Below are positions 23,675 to 36,768 of a stretch of 64,000 nt of DNA, piece after piece. The position numbers and the translations under genes were made by a program. Origin of the DNA: the human T2T-CHM13v2.0 reference genome, Homo sapiens; the NCBI RefSeq assembly GCF_009914755.1, contig NC_060928.1; one strand, given 5' to 3'. Below the pieces are notes generated by a model. The model searched no databases and had not been told where the DNA came from. It was given only the letters and a program-made list of their open reading frames with translations. Every line of letters starts with the position of its first letter. Positions within the stretch are counted from its first letter, which is position 1.

Positions 23675-23766
23675 TGCTGCTAGGTCACTTAAAAATGGAG
23701 ATGTGATTTATGGGAATGTTCTTGTCTACATGTAATGCAACACGTGGAATCTTTATAATAGGTGTC
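23675..23766 (+). repeat. 92-bp dispersed direct repeat, copy A
   Basis: About 8 differences from 25557-25647 by manual alignment. Confidence 0.9.
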
Positions 23767-23873: not shown

Positions 23874-24741
23874 TCTGGAAGTGATATCTAACATCCCTCC
23901 ATTATCTGGAAGTGATATCTAAAATCCCCACCATTATCTGAAAGTGATATCTAACATCCACCCATTATCTGGAAGTGAATATCTAACTTTCCCCCATTAT
24001 CTGGAAGTGATAGCTAACATCCCCCCATTATCTGGAAGTGAATATCTAACTTCCCCCCATTATCTGGAAGTGATAGCTAACATCCCCCCATTATCTGGAA
24101 GTGATATCTAACATCCCCCCATTATCTGGAAGTGATAGCTAACATCCCCCCATTATCCAGAAGTGAATATCTAACATCCCCCCATTATCTGGAAGTGTTA
24201 TCTAACATCACCCCATTATCTGGAAGTGATGGCTAACATCTGCCCATTATCTGGAAGTGATATCTAACATCCCCCCATTATCCGGAAGTGATATCTAACA
24301 TCCCCCATTATCTGGAAGTGTTATCTGACATCCCCCATTATCCGGAAGTGAATATCTAACATCTCCCCATTATCTGGAAGTGTTATCTAACATCCCCCCC
24401 ATTATCTGGAGTGATATCTAACATCCCCCCATTATCTGGAAGTGATATCTAACATCCCCCCATTATCTGGAAGTGATAGCTAACATCCCCCCATTATCTG
24501 GAAGTGATAGCTAACATCCCATTATCTGGAAGTGAATATCTAACATCCCCCATTATCTGGAAGTGTTATCTAACGTCACCCCATTATCTGGAAGTGATAT
24601 CTAACATCCACCCATTATCTGGAAGTGATATCTAACATCCCCCCCATTATCTGGAAGTGATAGCTAACATCCCCCTATTATCTGGAACTGATAGCTAACA
24701 TCCCCCCATTATCTGGAAGTGATATCTAATTTCCACCATTA
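23874..24741. repeat. Minisatellite VNTR1, ~28 x ~31 bp (CCATTATCTGGAAGTGATATCTAACATCCCC)
   Basis: Manual count of 28 cores; units vary in C-run length and GATATC/GATAGC/GAATATC/GTTATC. Confidence 0.97.
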
Positions 24742-25556: not shown

Positions 25557-25647
25557 TGCTGCTAGGTCACTTCAAAATGGAGACGTGATTTATGGGCATG
25601 TTATTGTCTACATGTAATCAACACATGGAATCTTTATAATACGTATC
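25557..25647 (+). repeat. 92-bp dispersed direct repeat, copy B
   Basis: Matches 23675-23766. Confidence 0.9.
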
Positions 25648-26080
25648 TATATTTCTATGAATTAAAGTTTTCCTATGGCCTATAGTTAAGTGTTCTTGCG
25701 AGGTGTGTGAGCAGGTGCACCTATGCTGTACATGGGGGAGGATGCTAGATAAAGAATATTATCTACTCTGTCTTACAGATCATTCCCAGACGGGGTGGTA
25801 GAAACATACCATACGAATGTAAGGAGGTTCCTAAAAATGTTCACTTGGGCCATAAGCACCATACAATTGAGCAAGGTTGCACATTTATGAAGCTCTACAA
25901 AGCACAGGTTGGTTTAGCATTATCTGCTGAGCCATTGGGCAATACCCCGTGAGGGGCACAGAGAGATGGGACAAGGCGCACAGAGGGCATCTGGGGAGTC
26001 AGGAAACAGCATGAGGACAGGGGGCCCCTGGGAATAGAAGGAGACTTGTTCAAGGGAAGAAACTGAAAAACAAAACACAA

Positions 26081-29000
26081 GGGAGATGATAGGGAAAATC
26101 AGGGTCTCTGTGTAGTTATCTGTGTGACTCAGCATGGGGAGACGATAGGGAAAATCAGGGTCTCTGTGTAGTTATCTGTGTGACTCAGCATGGGGAGATG
26201 ATAGGGAAAATCAGGGTCTCTGTGTAGTTATCTGTGTGACTCAGCATGGGGAGACGATAGGGAAAATCAGGGTCTCTGTGTAGTTAATCTCTGTGACTCA
26301 GCATGGGGAGACGATAGGGAAAATCAGGGTCTCTGTGTAGTTATCTGTGTGACTCAGCATGGGGAGACGATAGGGAAAATCAGGGTCTCTGTGTAGTTAA
26401 TCTCTGTGACTCAGCATGGGGAGACGATAGGGAAAATCAGGGTCTCTGTGTAGTTAATCTCTGTGACTCAGCATGGGGAGACGATAGGGAAAATCAGGGT
26501 CTCTGTGTAGTTAATCTGTGTGACTCAGCATGGGGAGACGATAGGGAAAATCAGGGTCTCTGTGTAGTTATCTGTGTGACTCAGCATGGGGAGACGATAG
26601 GGAAAATCAGGGTCTCTGTGTAGTTATCTGTGTGACTCAGCATGGGGAGACGATAGGGAAAATCAGGGTCTCTGTGTAGTTATCTGTGTGACTCAGCATG
26701 GGGAGACGATAGGGAAAATCAGGGTCTCTGTGTAGTTAATCTGTGTGACTCAGCATGGGGAGACGATAGGGAAAATCAGGGTCTCTGTGTAGTTATCTGT
26801 GTGACTCAGCATGGGGAGACGATAGGGAAAATCAGGGTCTCTGTGTAGTTAATCTCTGTGACTCAGCATGGGGAGACGATAGGGAAAATCAGGGTCTCTG
26901 TGTAGTTAATCTCTGTGACTCAGCATGGGGAGACGATAGGGAAAATCAGGGTCTCTGTGTAGTTAATCTGTGTGACTCAGCATGGGGAGACGATAGGGAA
27001 AATCAGGGTCTCTGTGTAGTTATCTGTGTGACTCAGCATGGGGAGACGATAGGGAAAATCAGGGTCTCTGTGTAGTTATCTGTGTGACTCAGCATGGGGA
27101 GACGATAGGGAAAATCAGGGTCTCTGTGTAGTTATCTGTGTGACTCAGCATGGGGAGACGATAGGGAAAATCAGGGTCTCTGTGTAGTTAATCTGTGTGA
27201 CTCAGCATGGGGAGACGATAGGGAAAATCAGGGTCTCTGTGTAGTTATCTGTGTGACTCAGCATGGGGAGACGATAGGGAAAATCAGGGTCTCTGTGTAG
27301 TTATCTGTGTGACTCAGCATGGGGAGACGATAGGGAAAATCAGGGTCTCTGTGTAGTTATCTGTGTGACTCAGCATGGGGAGACGATAGGGAAAATCAGG
27401 GTCTCTGTGTAGTTATCTGTGTGACTCAGCATGGGGAGACGATAGGGAAAATCAGGGTCTCTGTGTAGTTATCTGTGTGACTCAGCATGGGGAGACGATA
27501 GGGAAAATCAGGGTCTCTGTGTAGTTATCTGTGTGACTCAGCATGGGGAGACGATAGGGAAAATCAGGGTCTCTGTGTAGTTATCTGTGTGACTCAGCAT
27601 GGGGAGACGATAGGGAAAATCAGGGTCTCTGTGTAGTTATCTGTGTGACTCAGCATGGGGAGACGATAGGGAAAATCAGGGTCTCTGTGTAGTTATCTGT
27701 GTGACTCAGCATGGGGAGACGATAGGGAAAATCAGGGTCTCTGTGTAGTTATCTGTGTGACTCAGCATGGGGAGACGATAGGGAAAATCAGGGTCTCTGT
27801 GTAGTTATCTGTGTGACTCAGCATGGGGAGACGATAGGGAAAATCAGGGTCTCTGTGTAGTTATCTGTGTGACTCAGCATGGGGAGACGATAGGGAAAAT
27901 CAGGGTCTCTGTGTAGTTATCTGTGTGACTCAGCATGGGGAGATGATAGGGAAAATCAGGGTCTCTGTGTAGTTATCTGTGTGACTCAGCATGGGGAGAC
28001 GATAGGGAAAATCAGGGTCTCTGTGTAGTTATCTGTGTGACTCAGCATGGGGAGACGATAGGGAAAATCAGGGTCTCTGTGTAGTTATCTGTGTGACTCA
28101 GCATGGGGAGACGATAGGGAAAATCAGGGTCTCTGTGTAGTTATCTGTGTGACTCAGTATGGGGAGACGATAGGGAAAATCAGGGTCTCTGTGTAGTTAT
28201 CTGTGTGACTCAGCATGGGGAGACGATAGGGAAAATCAGGGTCTCTGTGTAGTTAATCTGTGTGACTCAGCATGGGGAGACGATAGGGAAAATCAGGGTC
28301 TCTGTGTAGTTAATCTCTGTGACTCAGCATGGGGAGATGATAGGGAAAATCAGGGTCTCTGTGTAGTTAATCTGTGTGACTCAGCATGGGGAGACGATAG
28401 GGAAAATCAGGGTCTCTGTGTAGTTAATCTGTGTGACTCAGCATGGGGAGACGATAGGGAAAATCAGGGTCTCTGTGTAGTTAATCTCTGTGACTCAGCA
28501 TGGGGAGACGATAGGGAAAATCAGGGTCTCTGTGTAGTTATCTGTGTGACTCAGCATGGGGAGACGATAGGGAAAATCAGGGTCTCTGTGTAGTTATCTG
28601 TGTGACTCAGCATGGGGAGATGATAGGGAAAATCAGGGTCTCTGTGTAGTTAATCTGTGTGACTCAGCATGGGGAGACCATAGGGAAAATCAGGGTCTCT
28701 GTGTAGTTAATCTCTGTGACTCAGCATGGGGAGACGATAGGGAAAATCAGGGTCTCTGTGTAGTTATCTGTGTGACTCAGCATGGGGAGACGATAGGGAA
28801 AATCAGGGTCTCTGTGTAGTTATCTGTGTGACTCAGCATGGGGAGACGATAGGGAAAATCAGGGTCTCTGTGTAGTTATCTGTGTGACTCAGCATGGGGA
28901 GACGATAGGGAAAATCAGGGTCTCTGTGTAGTTATCTGTGTGACTCAGCATGGGGAGACGATAGGGAAAATCAGGGTCTCTGTGTAGTTATCTGTGTGAC

Positions 29001-30076
29001 TCAGCATGGGGAGACGATAGGGAAAATCAGGGTCTCTGTGTAGTTATCTGTGTGACTCAGCATGGGGAGATGATAGGGAAAATCAGGGTCTCTGTGTAGT
29101 TATCTGTGTGACTCAGCATGGGGAGACGATAGGGAAAATCAGGGTCTCTGTGTAGTTAATCTCTGTGACTCAGCATGGGGAGACGATAGGGAAAATCAGG
29201 GTCTCTGTGTAGTTATCTGTGTGACTCAGCATGGGGAGACGATAGGGAAAATCAGGGTCTCTGTGTAGTTATCTGTGTGACTCAGCATGGGGAGACGATA
29301 GGGAAAATCAGGGTCTCTGTGTAGTTAATCTCTGTGACTCAGCATGGGGAGACGATAGGGAAAATCAGGGTCTCTGTGTAGTTATCTGTGTGACTCAGCA
29401 TGGGGAGACGATAGGGAAAATCAGGGTCTCTGTGTAGTTAATCTCTGTGACTCAGCATGGGGAGACGATAGGGAAAATCAGGGTCTCTGTGTAGTTATCT
29501 GTGTGACTCAGCATGGGGAGACGATAGGGAAAATCAGGGTCTCTGTGTAGTTATCTGTGTGACTCAGCATGGGGAGACGATAGGGAAAATCAGGGTCTCT
29601 GTGTAGTTATCTGTGTGACTCAGCATGGGGAGACGATAGGGAAAATCAGGGTCTCTGTGTAGTTATCTGTGTGACTCAGCATGGGGAGACGATAGGGAAA
29701 ATCAGGGTCTCTGTGTAGTTATCTGTGTGACTCAGCATGGGGAGACGATAAGGAAAATCAGGGTCTCTGTGTAGTTATCTGTGTGACTCAGCATGGGGAG
29801 ACGATAGGGAAAATCAGGGTCTCTGTGTAGTTATCTGTGTGACTCAGCATGGGGAGACGATAGGGAAAATCAGGGTCTCTGTGTAGTTAATCTGTGTGAC
29901 TCAGCATGGGGAGACGATAGGGAAAATCAGGGTCTCTGTGTAGTTAATCTGTGTGACTCAGCATGGGGAGACGATAGGGAAAATCAGGGTCTCTGTGTAG
30001 TTATCTGTGTGACTCAGCATGGGGAGACGATAGGGAAAATCAGGGTCTCTGTGTAGTTATCTGTGTGACTCAGCAT
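26081..30076. repeat. Minisatellite VNTR2, 71 x 56/57 bp (GGGGAGACGATAGGGAAAATCAGGGTCTCTGTGTAGTTATCTGTGTGACTCAGCAT)
   Basis: 3996 bp = 50 units of 56 bp (first lacks one G) + 21 units of 57 bp by manual count; units near-identical. Confidence 0.99.
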
Positions 30077-31289
30077 ACATGGGTACCGCATGGATAGAAA
30101 AGCATGATAAAGTTTGAAAAAGTATTTTTAAGTGTTGATGATGATGATGATTTTGAATGCAAACATACTTTGATTGTGATGATCTCTTCAATTATGATGT
30201 TGTACAAAACCAAAAAAATAAAAAACAAACTGATGTTCATCTTCAATTTGAGGTTAAGAAAACTCATTATATTCCCAGCATACCTTTTTGTTGATTGAAT
30301 GATTGAAGAGTAATCAGCAAACAACCTAATTTCTAAATCCTTGACAGCCATAATGATAATGTGAATCTCACTTGGAGAAATTCTCATCCCAAATTGTGTT
30401 CCATTGCTTCATAGGAATGTACTGAATCCGTTTCAAAGATCAATGAAAATAATGGCATGCTCATATATTGGATTTAAACATCTTATATGATTGTGGTTAT
30501 TGTGTTTTTTTTTTTTTTTTTTAATTTCTGAAAACAAACAAAAGGTCCTAGGAGAAAAGTAAACCTCCGTCTCCTGTCAAGTCCCTTCTCCCATACCTGC
30601 GTCTCTCATTGAAAGGGTAGTACAGAATTCAGGTTGGGACCAACCCGTGTAACCAGCAGTGATAACTAGTCGCTTTATTCCTGAAAACTCCAGGCTGTGA
30701 TTACATAAGCACAGGTGAATGGGGAAAAGCAAAAGCCATGGAGGAAATCCACCTGCGCTTTCTTCCCCCTGCCAGCCCAGCTTTCACCCAGGACTGTTCT
30801 TCATGGGCTGCACGCCTCTTGCCACTGGTATTCTTAAGCAAGTGCTGGGAAGACTCGAAAGAAAAGTGTCAGAGGAGCAGCAGGCAGCGGGTTTGGGGAG
30901 GAATGAAAAGCAGAGATGGACAATCCTATGGTTTTGCCCCGAAAGAGGACAGAGACTTCACTTTACTGAGTCTGTACAAACATCTGGAATCAAAGCCAAG
31001 AGAATGACTGCGATCTAAGCCTTTCTCTAGGCCCCAAGTTTACAGCAGTTTATGCTCCTAGAAAGAGAATAATCACTGCATTTACCCAACTAAATATTTC
31101 TGTCTATTTCTCATGAAAAGTGAGGTTAAAGGTTAATGTAAGACCATTGCAGCCCATAAATTTAGGATGACTGTATAATCCTTCCAGCTTTGAAATTGTC
31201 ATACCTTTTTTACTTATCCAAAATATTTCTAAAAACAACAGAAAGGTCTTGACAACCTTGATGACTTTATGGAATGTGAGATAAAGGGC

Positions 31290-36028: not shown

Positions 36029-36768
36029 TGTACTATTGAAATGGAGCTCTGACAGGAGACACCTTGGGTGCCTCAAGCTGGAGATTCTGCTTTGCATCCC
36101 CAGTTAATAATTAGTAGATAAAAGAAAGAGACTCTTTGGGCACTGGGACCTGGGGTCTATGAATGTTGAAAAGGAAGAGCAAACCATGACATCAGGACCT
36201 GAGTTTCTCACACCCCTTTCTCCCACCCCCACCCAGGCAAAAATAGATACAAAAGAAGAAGGAATTACAGAAGAAGTCACATAACATTATTGCCTACAAC
36301 TGACTGTTTACCTTGAATACTTGAAGACCAGAATGAAGATTCTTGGGGTGAAGAATTACAGCCTTAGCATGGAGCAGGCCTCGGTGCATCGGCTTTCAGC
36401 TAGGCATGCCTGCCAATGTTCAACGTCCTCCTGGGATACGGAAGGCACCGTGATAGACATCTGGGCAAGTCAACAGGAAGGTGGATATCCAAATCTCTCT
36501 CTTCGCAATGAGTTTCCAGTTAGATGGAGGAGAGAGTAATAAAACACAGTAAGTGTGGAAAAGATTAAAATGCATGTTGTGATATACCACAGGAAATCAG
36601 AGGAGAGAGGTTCATTCTAAGGGGAATGGTGGAAACGTCAGTGAGAACATACCACCTGGGTGGTTCTTGTAAGATGATGTGGAAGAGAAAAGGTAAAGAT
36701 TGAGCAAAACAGTGCATGAGCGAAGGATGCAATGTGAGATGGTCTGAACAGTTTAAAAGAATAACCTG

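What the first reader, a model, noticed from the sequence alone, without database searches (positions are those of the whole stretch)
26081..30076. 4-kb minisatellite that is an array of ~70 NF-E2/NRF2/BACH1 sites, most paired with GATA
Seen: 70 of 71 units contain GTGACTCAGCA (one has CAGTA). In 50 units TTATCT lies 2 bp upstream; the minus strand then reads CTG-N8-AGATAA. Established: RTGACTCAGCA is the CNC-sMaf (NF-E2, NRF2, BACH1) MARE/ARE consensus with an AP-1 core, AGATAA is the optimal GATA site, CTG-N6-8-WGATAR is the TAL1/LDB1-GATA composite, and NF-E2 plus GATA1 is classic erythroid/megakaryocyte enhancer grammar. Inference: this could be a copy-number-tunable, haem/oxidative-stress-responsive enhancer or a transcription-factor sink. 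The CTG overlaps the MARE, so TAL1 and CNC-Maf occupancy might be mutually exclusive. Short reads multi-map here, so standard pipelines could hide it.
Basis: partly seen in the sequence, partly recalled or inferred. Interest (0 to 1): 0.85.

Follow-up and report, generated by a model that had tools for sequence, protein, structure and literature searches.

The report
Polymorphic minisatellite of 70 MARE sites
A 4-kb stretch of human chromosome 4 repeats one 56-base unit 71 times, each copy carrying a near-perfect docking site for AP-1 and NF-E2/NRF2/BACH1-type regulators; its length varies between people and tracks with activity of the neighbouring non-coding gene LINC01060, but cause is not proven.

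Summary
Window 26081-30076 is a 71-unit, 56/57-bp minisatellite. 70 of 71 units carry GTGACTCAGCA and 50 of 71 carry TTATCT 2 bp upstream. The unit and both flanks occur only at this locus in T2T-CHM13. The array holds 70 of the genome's 5,535 perfect RTGACTCAGCA sites (1.3%), the largest such cluster found here.

The high count comes from tandem amplification of one seeded unit, not from 70 selected sites. Only 6 of 57 columns vary. The MARE is no better kept than the rest of the unit. The commonest variant (21 of 71 units) destroys the GATA site. No unit has a CANNTG E-box.

The locus is already catalogued. Lu et al. 2021 supplements list it at hg38 chr4:188444850-188449186 (mean 2.8 kb, SD 0.96 kb, 17 assemblies). 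There it is the lead length-eQTL for LINC01060, with positive slopes in 6-7 solid tissues. In their 2023 re-analysis the lead moved to the adjacent 31-bp VNTR, and nothing was fine-mapped.

Best reading: a length-variable multimerised bZIP response element that acts as an enhancer, like the LTR10 AP-1 VNTRs. The erythroid, TAL1 and transcription-factor-sink readings are untested.

The parts
26081..30076 (+). 56/57-bp minisatellite, 71 units (49 of 56 bp, 21 of 57 bp, 1 truncated to 55 bp). It has 70 perfect RTGACTCAGCA sites and 50 TTATCT sites.
   Evidence: TRF; unit dissection.
27028..27038 (+). Representative MARE/ARE/TRE site GTGACTCAGCA. The minus strand reads TGCTGAGTCAC.
   Evidence: Sequence. 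The match to the consensus is by recalled motif definitions.
27020..27025 (-). Representative GATA site (AGATAA on the minus strand), 2 bp from the MARE. Present in 50 of 71 units.
28149..28159 (+). The single degenerate unit, GTGACTCAGTA. The AP-1 core is kept but the Maf-side GC is lost.
26306..27209 (+). Two 100% identical 452-bp blocks of 8 units each (26306-26757 and 26758-27209). This marks a recent unequal exchange or slippage event.
27210..27937 (+). Run of 13 identical 56-bp units, the homogenised core of the array.
25792..26993 (.). RefSeq functional element 'enhancer' covering the left edge (289 bp of flank plus 913 bp of array).
   Evidence: Gene table supplied with the finding. 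Its experimental source could not be traced here.
28979..30180 (.). RefSeq functional element 'enhancer' covering the right edge (1,098 bp of array plus 104 bp of flank).
   Evidence: Gene table supplied with the finding.
23874..24729 (+). Adjacent 31-bp VNTR (27.6 copies) with 28 TTATCT and 21 exact TTATCTGGAAGTG (GATA site abutting an ETS-like core). It is the lead LINC01060 eVNTR in the 2023 analysis, so it is either a partner or a confounder.
36452..36548 (+). LINC01060 RefSeq exon 1, 6,376 bp downstream of the array. It is the candidate cis target.
   Evidence: Gene table supplied with the finding; distance; eQTL.

Best explanation
This is a locus-unique, length-hypervariable minisatellite. 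One 56-bp unit happened to carry a perfect TRE embedded in a CNC-sMaf MARE (TGCTGAGTCAC) next to AGATAA. Unequal exchange or replication slippage then amplified and homogenised that unit to 71 copies in CHM13.

The product is in effect a natural multimerised bZIP response element. Where its chromatin is open, it should be loaded by AP-1 (FOS/JUN), which is widely expressed, and by CNC/BACH-small-Maf dimers where those are abundant. GATA factors could co-occupy the 50 intact units. It would then act as an enhancer whose output rises with unit number. The likely cis target is LINC01060 (RefSeq TSS 6.4 kb away; the array is intronic in the Gencode model). It probably acts together with the adjacent 31-bp GATA-ETS VNTR.

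Shown: the sequence anatomy, its uniqueness in the genome, the length polymorphism and the length-expression association. Inferred: factor occupancy, causality, and any response to stimuli.
For: - Every unit has TGACTCA, and 70 of 71 have the full RTGACTCAGCA.
- The unit and both flanks are single-locus in CHM13: all 50 pattern hits at up to 3 mismatches lie in the array, and each flank matches only itself.
- The array holds 70 of 5,535 genome-wide RTGACTCAGCA sites. It also holds 49 of 95 TTATCT-N0-12-TGACTCAGCA composites.
- Recent expansion is visible as two identical 452-bp blocks and 13 identical units in a row.
- It is polymorphic. Lu 2021 supplements give 4,336 bp in hg38 and a mean of 2,827.5 bp with SD 956.9 bp over 17 assemblies (header).
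- The identity of that catalogue locus was checked two ways. Its 21-mer occurs once in the window, inside the array. The gap to the neighbouring VNTR is 1,352 bp in both assemblies.
- It was the lead eVNTR for LINC01060, always with a positive slope: +0.29 in visceral adipose (nominal p 2.3e-10), +0.29 to +0.31 in heart atrial appendage, +0.22 in thyroid, +0.20 in subcutaneous adipose, +0.20 in tibial nerve, +0.23 in aorta, and +0.24 in testis in the unfiltered set.
- RefSeq enhancer features lie on both edges (supplied gene table).
- There is precedent. [quoted passage not shown]
Against: - In Lu 2023 Supplemental Data S2 the lead length-eVNTR for LINC01060 is the neighbouring 31-bp VNTR. It appears in 14 rows, with slopes of +0.46 in thyroid (p 4.7e-30) and +0.44 in subcutaneous adipose (p 1.7e-27). 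That is about twice the slope reported for this array in the same tissues.
- This array's coordinates are absent from S2, S4 and the code archive, and LINC01060 has no entry in the fine-mapped set S4. The 2021 association could therefore reflect linkage disequilibrium.
- The paper states that only 137 of 346 of the 2021 eVNTRs were reproduced.
- There is no sign of selection on the motifs. Only 6 of 57 columns vary, the MARE carries 1 of them, and the commonest variant (21 of 71 units) breaks the GATA site.
- A MARE-seeded minisatellite is about what chance predicts. At least 6 other arrays carry TGACTCAGCA repeats.
- The array is not a CpG island (o/e 0.33) and 6 units show CpG-to-TpG decay, which suggests germline methylation.
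- No chromatin, ChIP or reporter data could be consulted.
Confidence: 0.5

Rival explanations
1. Functionally neutral minisatellite. The motif content is a chance property of the seeded unit. The array is methylated or closed in vivo. The LINC01060 association comes from linkage with the adjacent 31-bp VNTR or with SNPs. The RefSeq enhancer calls reflect only the activity any TRE multimer shows in episomal or edge-mapped assays.
For: - The 2023 lead eVNTR is the neighbour, with roughly twice the slope, and nothing was fine-mapped for LINC01060.
- The MARE is not preferentially conserved, and the GATA site is lost in 21 of 71 units.
- At least 6 other MARE-bearing minisatellites exist. By my hand estimate, about 1.7e-6 sites per bp times a 56-bp unit times 30,000-80,000 catalogued VNTRs predicts roughly 1-8 such arrays by chance.
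- CpG o/e is 0.33, with CpG decay in 6 units.
Against: - In 2021 this array, not the 31-bp one, was the lead of 19 (filtered set) or 23 (complete set) VNTRs tested for LINC01060. Its slope was positive in all 6-7 tissues.
- The paper says 70% of non-reproduced eVNTRs were dropped by stricter quality control rather than contradicted.
- RefSeq functional elements are curated from experimental data (recalled policy).
- Perfect TRE multimers are strong activators in most cell types (established knowledge).
Confidence: 0.3
2. One reading: an erythroid/megakaryocytic enhancer run by NF-E2 p45-small Maf together with GATA1 (and TAL1/LDB1), responsive to haem through BACH1 or to oxidative stress through NRF2.
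For: - TGCTGAGTCAC fits the NF-E2 consensus exactly, and AGATAA is the preferred GATA1 site (recalled definitions; counts).
- The neighbouring VNTR adds 21 GATA-ETS pairs. GATA plus ETS plus NF-E2 is megakaryocyte vocabulary (PMC4960521, abstract seen in the listing).
- LINC01060 appears in in-silico ferroptosis and iron-metabolism lncRNA signatures in osteosarcoma (PMC9273977 and PMC12650539, passages). This is a very weak lead.
Against: - The eQTL tissues are adipose, heart, thyroid, nerve, aorta and testis, and blood is not among them.
- No E-box occurs in any unit (0 of 71), and the CTG belongs to the MARE itself.
- The GATA site is lost in 30% of units.
- GATA plus AP-1 plus ETS is equally the grammar of endothelial and mesenchymal enhancers (recalled).
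- No erythroid gene lies nearby; the supplied gene table shows only lncRNAs and pseudogenes.
Confidence: 0.1
3. Transcription-factor sink or decoy. The array titrates small Maf, BACH1 or NRF2 (or AP-1) away from other targets, so its length acts in trans.
For: One 4-kb locus holds 1.3% of the haploid genome's perfect 11-mer sites (70 of 5,535). Its length varies by about ±17 units (1 SD) between haplotypes (arithmetic).
Against: - About 98.7% of perfect sites, and far more degenerate sites, lie elsewhere.
- Nuclear bZIP proteins are generally thought to exceed 70-150 sites in number (recalled, not checked).
- Accessibility is unknown.
- No trans-eQTL or trait association was found in the papers searched.
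Confidence: 0.05

Closest known systems
Internal VNTR of LTR10A/LTR10F endogenous retroviral LTRs (AP-1 motif arrays acting as MAPK-responsive enhancers)
   Same: A tandem unit of tens of bp, each carrying an AP-1 site. [quoted passage not shown]
   Different: The LTR10 unit is 28-30 bp with at most 33 motif copies in the reference, and it sits inside a dispersed ERV family. This array has 56-bp units and 70 sites. Its flanks are single-copy, so it is not part of a repeat family. The TRE is extended to a full CNC-sMaf MARE and is paired with GATA.
Beta-globin LCR HS2 tandem NF-E2/AP-1 sites with nearby GATA sites, and similar erythroid enhancers (recalled)
   Same: The same site type (TGCTGAGTCA) combined with GATA sites. 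Duplication of the MARE is known to be important for enhancer strength.
   Different: HS2 has two MAREs in a conserved, non-repetitive enhancer beside its target genes. This locus has 70 in a hypervariable minisatellite in a lncRNA-only region, with GATA abutting the CNC half-site at 2 bp. No occupancy data were available.
Catalogued eVNTRs (danbing-tk; Lu et al. 2021 and 2023), for example the CACNA1C intronic 30-bp VNTR
   Same: This array is itself one of the 346 eVNTRs of Lu 2021 (hg38 chr4:188444850-188449186), with length positively associated with a nearby transcript.
   Different: It is listed only in supplementary tables. The main text of that paper never names LINC01060 (0 occurrences), and its transcription-factor motif content is not described there. 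It was not the lead in the 2023 analysis.
Other MARE-bearing minisatellites in T2T-CHM13
   Same: They carry periodic TGACTCAGCA. chr16:96.081 Mb has 38 perfect sites in about 1.3 kb, chr16:94.399 Mb has 8 in 46-bp units, chr9:144.484 Mb has 6 perfect sites plus 16 TREs in 41-bp units, and chr4:8.28 Mb has 5 in 26-bp units.
   Different: All are smaller. The fetched pieces hold at most 5 WGATAR sites, and none was seen to carry a GATA site in every unit. The large chr16 array is much more degenerate (68-73% matches against 98% here).
Synthetic multimerised ARE/TRE reporter elements (recalled)
   Same: Head-to-tail copies of one bZIP site whose output rises with copy number.
   Different: Those are designed, with 3-8 copies and short spacers. 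This is natural, with 71 copies at 56-bp spacing, in chromatin.

Membership tests
Minisatellite / VNTR | Head-to-tail units of about 10-100 bp | tested here: met
   Period 56, 71.0 copies, 98% matches.
Minisatellite / VNTR | Copy number varies between individuals | tested here: met
   CHM13 has 3,996 bp. Lu 2021 supplements give hg38 4,336 bp and a mean of 2,827.5 bp with SD 956.9 over 17 assemblies.
Minisatellite / VNTR | Single locus, not a dispersed repeat family | tested here: met
   All 50 pattern hits at up to 3 mismatches lie in the array. Both flanks are single-copy.
CNC-small Maf recognition element (MARE/ARE; NF-E2, NRF2, BACH1) | Sequence match to RTGACTCAGCA / TGCTGAGTCAY and to the ARE core TGACnnnGC | tested here: met
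   70 of 71 units. The consensus definitions are recalled.
CNC-small Maf recognition element (MARE/ARE; NF-E2, NRF2, BACH1) | Occupancy by the factors in cells, and response to haem or electrophiles | not testable with these tools
   No ChIP, ATAC or reporter data were available. Paper searches found nothing on this locus.
TAL1/LDB1-GATA composite element | CTG half E-box 7-8 bp upstream of WGATAR | tested here: met
   50 of 71 units. However, the CTG is part of the MARE half-site TGCTGA, so it is not an independent feature.
TAL1/LDB1-GATA composite element | Full CANNTG E-box | tested here: not met
   0 of 71 units, including across unit junctions.
Transcriptional enhancer | Experimental annotation as an enhancer | not tested
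   RefSeq enhancer features at 25792-26993 and 28979-30180 come from the supplied gene table. The underlying assay could not be traced.
Transcriptional enhancer | Genetic effect on a nearby gene | tested here: inconclusive
   Lead eVNTR for LINC01060 in 6-7 tissues in 2021. In 2023 the lead was the neighbouring VNTR, and nothing was fine-mapped.
LTR10-type AP-1 VNTR enhancer | Tandem unit carrying TGACTCA | tested here: met
   71 of 71 units.
LTR10-type AP-1 VNTR enhancer | Embedded in an LTR10A/F element (a dispersed ERV LTR) | tested here: not met
   The 801-bp and 824-bp flanks match only themselves in the genome, apart from one 92-bp local duplicate.
Forensic/FSHD marker VNTR D4S139 (pH30) | Lies about 0.21 Mb proximal to D4Z4 | tested here: not met
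   PMC10092082 (passages) gives 0.21 Mb. The window ends 1.745 Mb from the end of chr4.

The most novel reading that the evidence does not exclude
The array, together with the adjacent GATA-ETS VNTR, is a natural enhancer of variable dose that responds to stimuli: MAPK/AP-1, haem through BACH1, or electrophiles through NRF2. It holds 1.3% of the genome's perfect CNC-sMaf sites at one address, and its length ranges over roughly 50 ± 17 units between haplotypes. When open, it would be the strongest single binding locus for these factors. It might nucleate a bZIP hub or measurably titrate small Maf or BACH1. An inherited length polymorphism would then modify stress or haem responses in trans as well as LINC01060 in cis.
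Probability: 0.06. Interest if true: 0.85.

Novelty: new member of a known kind. Interest (0 to 1): 0.5.

Why it matters
If the array is occupied in vivo, it would be a clean natural experiment in how enhancer output scales with the number of identical bZIP sites.

- Unit number ranges over tens of copies between people.
- The 57-bp variant provides an internal GATA knock-out in 30% of units.
- Public ChIP and ATAC data, once mapped to T2T, could settle the question quickly.

It also shows that the largest cluster of perfect NF-E2/NRF2/BACH1 sites in the human genome lies in a region that short-read pipelines see only at its edges.

If the array is not occupied, it is a useful caution. Perfect motif arrays arise by neutral amplification of one seeded unit, and eVNTR calls for closely spaced VNTRs can swap between analyses.

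Tried and rejected
1. Forensic and FSHD marker D4S139. I recalled a 31-bp unit at 4q35 and found that the HaeIII fragment around this array is 5,007 bp. This idea is rejected: D4S139 lies 0.21 Mb from D4Z4 (PMC10092082), whereas this window ends 1.745 Mb from the chromosome end.

2. My inference that the two 1,202-bp RefSeq features are contiguous in GRCh38, which would make the reference array about 36 units. This is rejected: hg38 has 4,336 bp.

3. Source of the RefSeq enhancer calls. I recalled the 1.2-kb HCT116 STARR-seq windows of Neumayr 2022, but that paper is not held (with the id confirmed), so the source is untraced.

4. Common origin of the 31-bp and 56-bp units. The alignment score (15) falls within the shuffled null (mean 12.5, maximum 26), so the idea is rejected. 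The units share only TTATCTG.

5. Transposable-element origin or other genomic copies. None were found. No proto-unit is present in the flanks (best local score 18).

6. Literature.
   - All 10 searches found no paper describing this array's motif content.
   - The 19-nt unit string occurs in 0 papers.
   - One search was badly designed and uninformative.
   - One search was a malformed query, corrected.

7. Papers not held: Sulovari 2019 and Garg 2021.

8. Supplements not readable: Lu 2023 Supplemental Data S3 (eMotifs) and S1, plus the PDF supplements of both Lu papers. These could show whether this array or particular unit variants are eMotifs.

10. No comparison with other primates was possible, because only the human assembly is held.
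Full report
**Observation**

TRF finds one array at window 26081-30076: period 56, 71.0 copies, 98% matches, no indel percentage, score 7663. The sequence was read directly.

Cutting at GGGAGA gives 71 units in nine sequence types:
- A, the 56-bp consensus: 43 units.
- B and C, 57-bp variants with TTAATCT: 10 and 8 units.
- D, 56 bp with CG changed to TG: 4 units.
- E: 2 units.
- F, G, H and I: 1 unit each. I is the last unit, truncated to 55 bp.

Motif counts over the 71 units:
- TGACTCA: 71.
- RTGACTCAGCA and the ARE core TGACnnnGC: 70.
- GTGACTCAGTA: 1, at 28149-28159.
- TTATCT, which is AGATAA on the minus strand: 50.
- The exact string TTATCTGTGTGACTCAGCA: 49.
- CTG-N8-AGATAA on the minus strand: 50.
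- AGATTAA instead of AGATAA: 21.
- CANNTG: 0.

All 70 TGACTCAGCA sites of the 64-kb window lie in the array. Only 5 TGA[CG]TCA cores lie outside it.

**Is it more than chance?**

As clustering, trivially yes. But the 70 sites are copies of one event. The alignment of all units has 57 columns, of which only 6 vary, apart from the truncated last unit:
- Column 7, C to T at the single CpG: 6 units.
- Column 8: 1 unit.
- Column 12: 1 unit.
- Column 38, an extra A inside TTATCT: 21 units.
- Column 43, G to C in the 2-bp spacer: 11 units.
- Column 54, C to T in the MARE: 1 unit.

The 11 MARE columns therefore carry 1 of 6 variable positions, which is about the proportional share. The commonest variant specifically destroys the GATA site. 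Within the array nothing indicates selection for either motif.

Homogeneity reflects recent concerted expansion. Units 5-12 and 13-20 form two 452-bp blocks that are 100% identical (26306-26757 and 26758-27209). Thirteen identical units follow at 27210-27937.

**Genome context**

- The 401-bp probe and the 45-nt unit pattern (up to 3 mismatches) hit only this array. All 50 pattern matches and all 16 BLAST pieces lie within it.
- The 801-bp left flank and the 824-bp right flank match only themselves, apart from a 92-bp local duplicate with 91% identity (23675-23766 against 25557-25647). The array is therefore not part of a transposable-element family.
- CHM13 contains 5,535 RTGACTCAGCA sites (2,753 on one strand, 2,782 on the other). 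The array holds 70 of them, or 1.26%.
- Of 95 TTATCT-N0-12-TGACTCAGCA composites genome-wide, 49 are here.

Searches for three closely spaced TGACTCAGCA sites gave 117 matches with gaps of 10-120 bp, most of them in this array. With gaps of 4-45 bp, which exclude this array, there were 35 matches at five other loci. The counts below come unless another call is given.

| Locus | Perfect sites | Notes |
|---|---|---|
| chr16:96.081 Mb | 38 in about 1.3 kb | degenerate 27/41-bp units |
| chr16:94.399 Mb | 8 | 46-bp units |
| chr9:144.484 Mb | 6, plus 16 TRE cores | 41-bp units |
| chr4:8.28 Mb | 5 | 26-bp units |
| chr16:71.77 Mb and chr17:39.996 Mb | 3 each | |

So this is the largest member of a small class.

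My hand estimate is as follows. About 5,400 dispersed sites in 3.1 Gb gives 1.7e-6 per bp. Multiplying by a 56-bp unit and by the 30,000-80,000 VNTR loci catalogued in the Lu papers predicts roughly 1-8 MARE-seeded arrays by chance. That matches what is seen.

A GATA site in this orientation within 12 bp accompanies fewer than 1% of dispersed MAREs (46 elsewhere). The pairing is mildly unusual, but it was picked out after the fact.

**Local context**

According to the supplied gene table:
- The array lies in an intron of the lncRNA LOC105377609 (minus strand).
- It ends 6,376 bp upstream of RefSeq LINC01060 exon 1.
- RefSeq 'enhancer' features of 1,202 bp each cover its two edges. I could not trace their experimental source.

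Other features of the locus:
- The array is not a CpG island: 64 CpGs, o/e 0.33, against 0.29 for the whole window. There is also no strong CpG island at the LINC01060 start.
- The six CG-to-TG units suggest germline methylation. Incidentally, each creates a canonical TGATAG site.
- HinfI cuts every unit. HaeIII releases the array on a 5,007-bp fragment.

**Published data on this locus**

None of the ten full-text searches found a paper discussing the array. The 19-nt unit string occurs in 0 papers.

However, the supplementary tables of Lu et al. 2021 (Nat Commun, PMC8275641) list it. I searched the supplements, read the header and read main-text passages. The entry reads:
- Locus hg38 chr4:188444850-188449186, with reference length 4,336 bp.
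- Mean length over assemblies 2,827.5 bp, SD 956.9 bp, n = 17. That is about 50 ± 17 units, against 77 in hg38 and 71 in CHM13.

I checked that this is the same locus in two ways:
- Their most informative 21-mer occurs exactly once in the window, at 29747-29767 inside the array.
- Their next locus, chr4:188442643-188443498 (855 bp), lies 1,352 bp upstream. The 31-bp VNTR at 23874-24729 sits at exactly that distance here.

In that study the array is the lead eVNTR for LINC01060, out of 19 VNTRs tested in the filtered set or 23 in the complete set. All slopes are positive:

| Tissue | Slope | Note |
|---|---|---|
| Visceral adipose | +0.29 | nominal p 2.3e-10 |
| Heart atrial appendage | +0.29 (filtered set), +0.31 (complete set) | |
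| Thyroid | +0.22 | |
| Subcutaneous adipose | +0.20 | |
| Tibial nerve | +0.20 | |
| Aorta | +0.23 | |
| Testis | +0.24 | complete set only |

LINC01060 is never named in the main text (0 occurrences). In Gencode the gene starts at 188400736, so the array is intronic in that model.

**Results against causality**

In the follow-up, Lu et al. 2023 (Genome Res, PMC10234305), I searched the supplements and read passages.
- Supplemental Data S2 (length eVNTRs) names the neighbouring 31-bp VNTR as lead for LINC01060 in 14 rows. Slopes include +0.46 in thyroid (p 4.7e-30) and +0.44 in subcutaneous adipose (p 1.7e-27). That is about twice the slope of this array in the same tissues.
- This array's coordinates do not occur in S2, S4 or the code archive.
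- LINC01060 has no entry in S4, the fine-mapped set with PIP of at least 0.8.
- S3 (eMotifs) and S1 could not be read.
- The paper states that 137 of 346 earlier eVNTRs were reproduced. It also states that 70% of the rest were removed by stricter quality control. Only 13 VNTRs were tested for LINC01060 in 2023, against 19 or 23 before.

The array may therefore have been dropped rather than out-competed, but I cannot tell. The honest summary is that a robust cis-eQTL for LINC01060 maps to this pair of VNTRs. Which of them, or which linked SNP, is causal remains open.

**The neighbouring VNTR**

The neighbour is interesting in itself. Its 31-bp unit carries 28 TTATCT, 24 GGAAGTG and 21 exact TTATCTGGAAGTG, which is an AGATAA site abutting an ETS-like core. 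The two units are otherwise unrelated: the alignment score of 15 falls within the shuffled null.

Together, the two arrays offer GATA-ETS about 21 times and GATA-TRE/MARE 49 times within 6.2 kb.

**Mechanism**

The best-supported reading is a natural multimer of a bZIP response element.

TGACTCA is the AP-1 consensus. The extension to TGCTGAGTCAC fits the binding sites of NF-E2, NRF2 and BACH1-small Maf (recalled definitions). AP-1 is active in most solid tissues, so it is the most economical candidate for the tissues that show the eQTL. CNC-sMaf or BACH1 occupancy would add responsiveness to stress or haem wherever those factors dominate.

The AGATAA lies 2 bp from the CNC half-site. Whether GATA factors cooperate or compete there is unknown. 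The 21 GATA-broken units provide a built-in test.

The closest precedent is the LTR10A/F VNTR. Its 28-30-bp units each carry an AP1 motif, with up to 33 copies, and motif number correlates with H3K27ac and FOSL1 signal in HCT116 cells (PMC466953, passages).

I put 0.5 on this reading. I put 0.3 on a neutral minisatellite whose association is due to linkage, 0.1 on the specifically erythroid/megakaryocytic reading, and 0.05 on a sink.

The CTG is part of the MARE, and no unit has an E-box.

**Novelty and verdict**

- The repeat, its polymorphism and its eVNTR status are already in public tables, and RefSeq already labels its edges as enhancers.
- Not found in print in the searches listed above: its motif anatomy, its rank as the largest perfect-MARE cluster in the genome, the GATA-breaking unit variant, and the pairing with a GATA-ETS VNTR.
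- It is a new member of a known kind, the motif-bearing VNTR enhancers.
- Interest is moderate. It is easy to test with existing data and would be a good model of motif dosage, but its only evident target is a lncRNA and causality is unresolved.

Noticed in passing
window 23874-24729: A 31-bp VNTR (27.6 copies, 89% matches) lies 1,352 bp upstream of the array. It carries 28 TTATCT, 24 GGAAGTG and 21 exact TTATCTGGAAGTG, which is a GATA site abutting an ETS-like core. It corresponds to hg38 chr4:188442643-188443498. It is the lead length-eVNTR for LINC01060 in Lu 2023 Supplemental Data S2, with 14 rows and a thyroid slope of +0.46 at p 4.7e-30.
   Followed up: partly
window 23675-23766 and 25557-25647: A 92-bp local duplication with 91% identity. 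One copy sits just upstream of the 31-bp VNTR and the other about 430 bp upstream of the 56-bp array. Its origin and meaning are unknown.
   Followed up: partly
L019 (G000:C16:96079500-96084500), about 1556-2886 in the locus: The second-largest MARE cluster in CHM13, near the 16q end. It has 38 perfect RTGACTCAGCA sites and 43 TGACTCA cores in about 1.3 kb of degenerate 27/41-bp repeats.
   Followed up: partly
L020 (chr16:94.399 Mb), L022 (chr9:144.484 Mb), L021 (chr4:8.28 Mb); also chr16:71.77 Mb and chr17:39.996 Mb: Smaller minisatellites whose units also carry TGACTCAGCA. L020 has 8 sites in 46-bp units at 99% matches. L022 has 6 perfect sites plus 16 TRE cores in 41-bp units (18 copies). 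L021 has 5 sites in 26-bp units. The last two loci have 3 sites each.
   Followed up: partly
window 26081-30076, unit column 7: The only CpG of the unit (GACGATAG) has decayed to TG in 6 of 71 units. Each decay creates a canonical WGATAR site (TGATAG) on the plus strand.
   Followed up: no
window 26081-30076: Every unit (71 of 71) also contains GGAAAA within GGGAAAATCA, an NFAT/Rel-like core by recalled motif. Three units span 168-171 bp, close to a nucleosome repeat length. Neither point was examined further.
   Followed up: no
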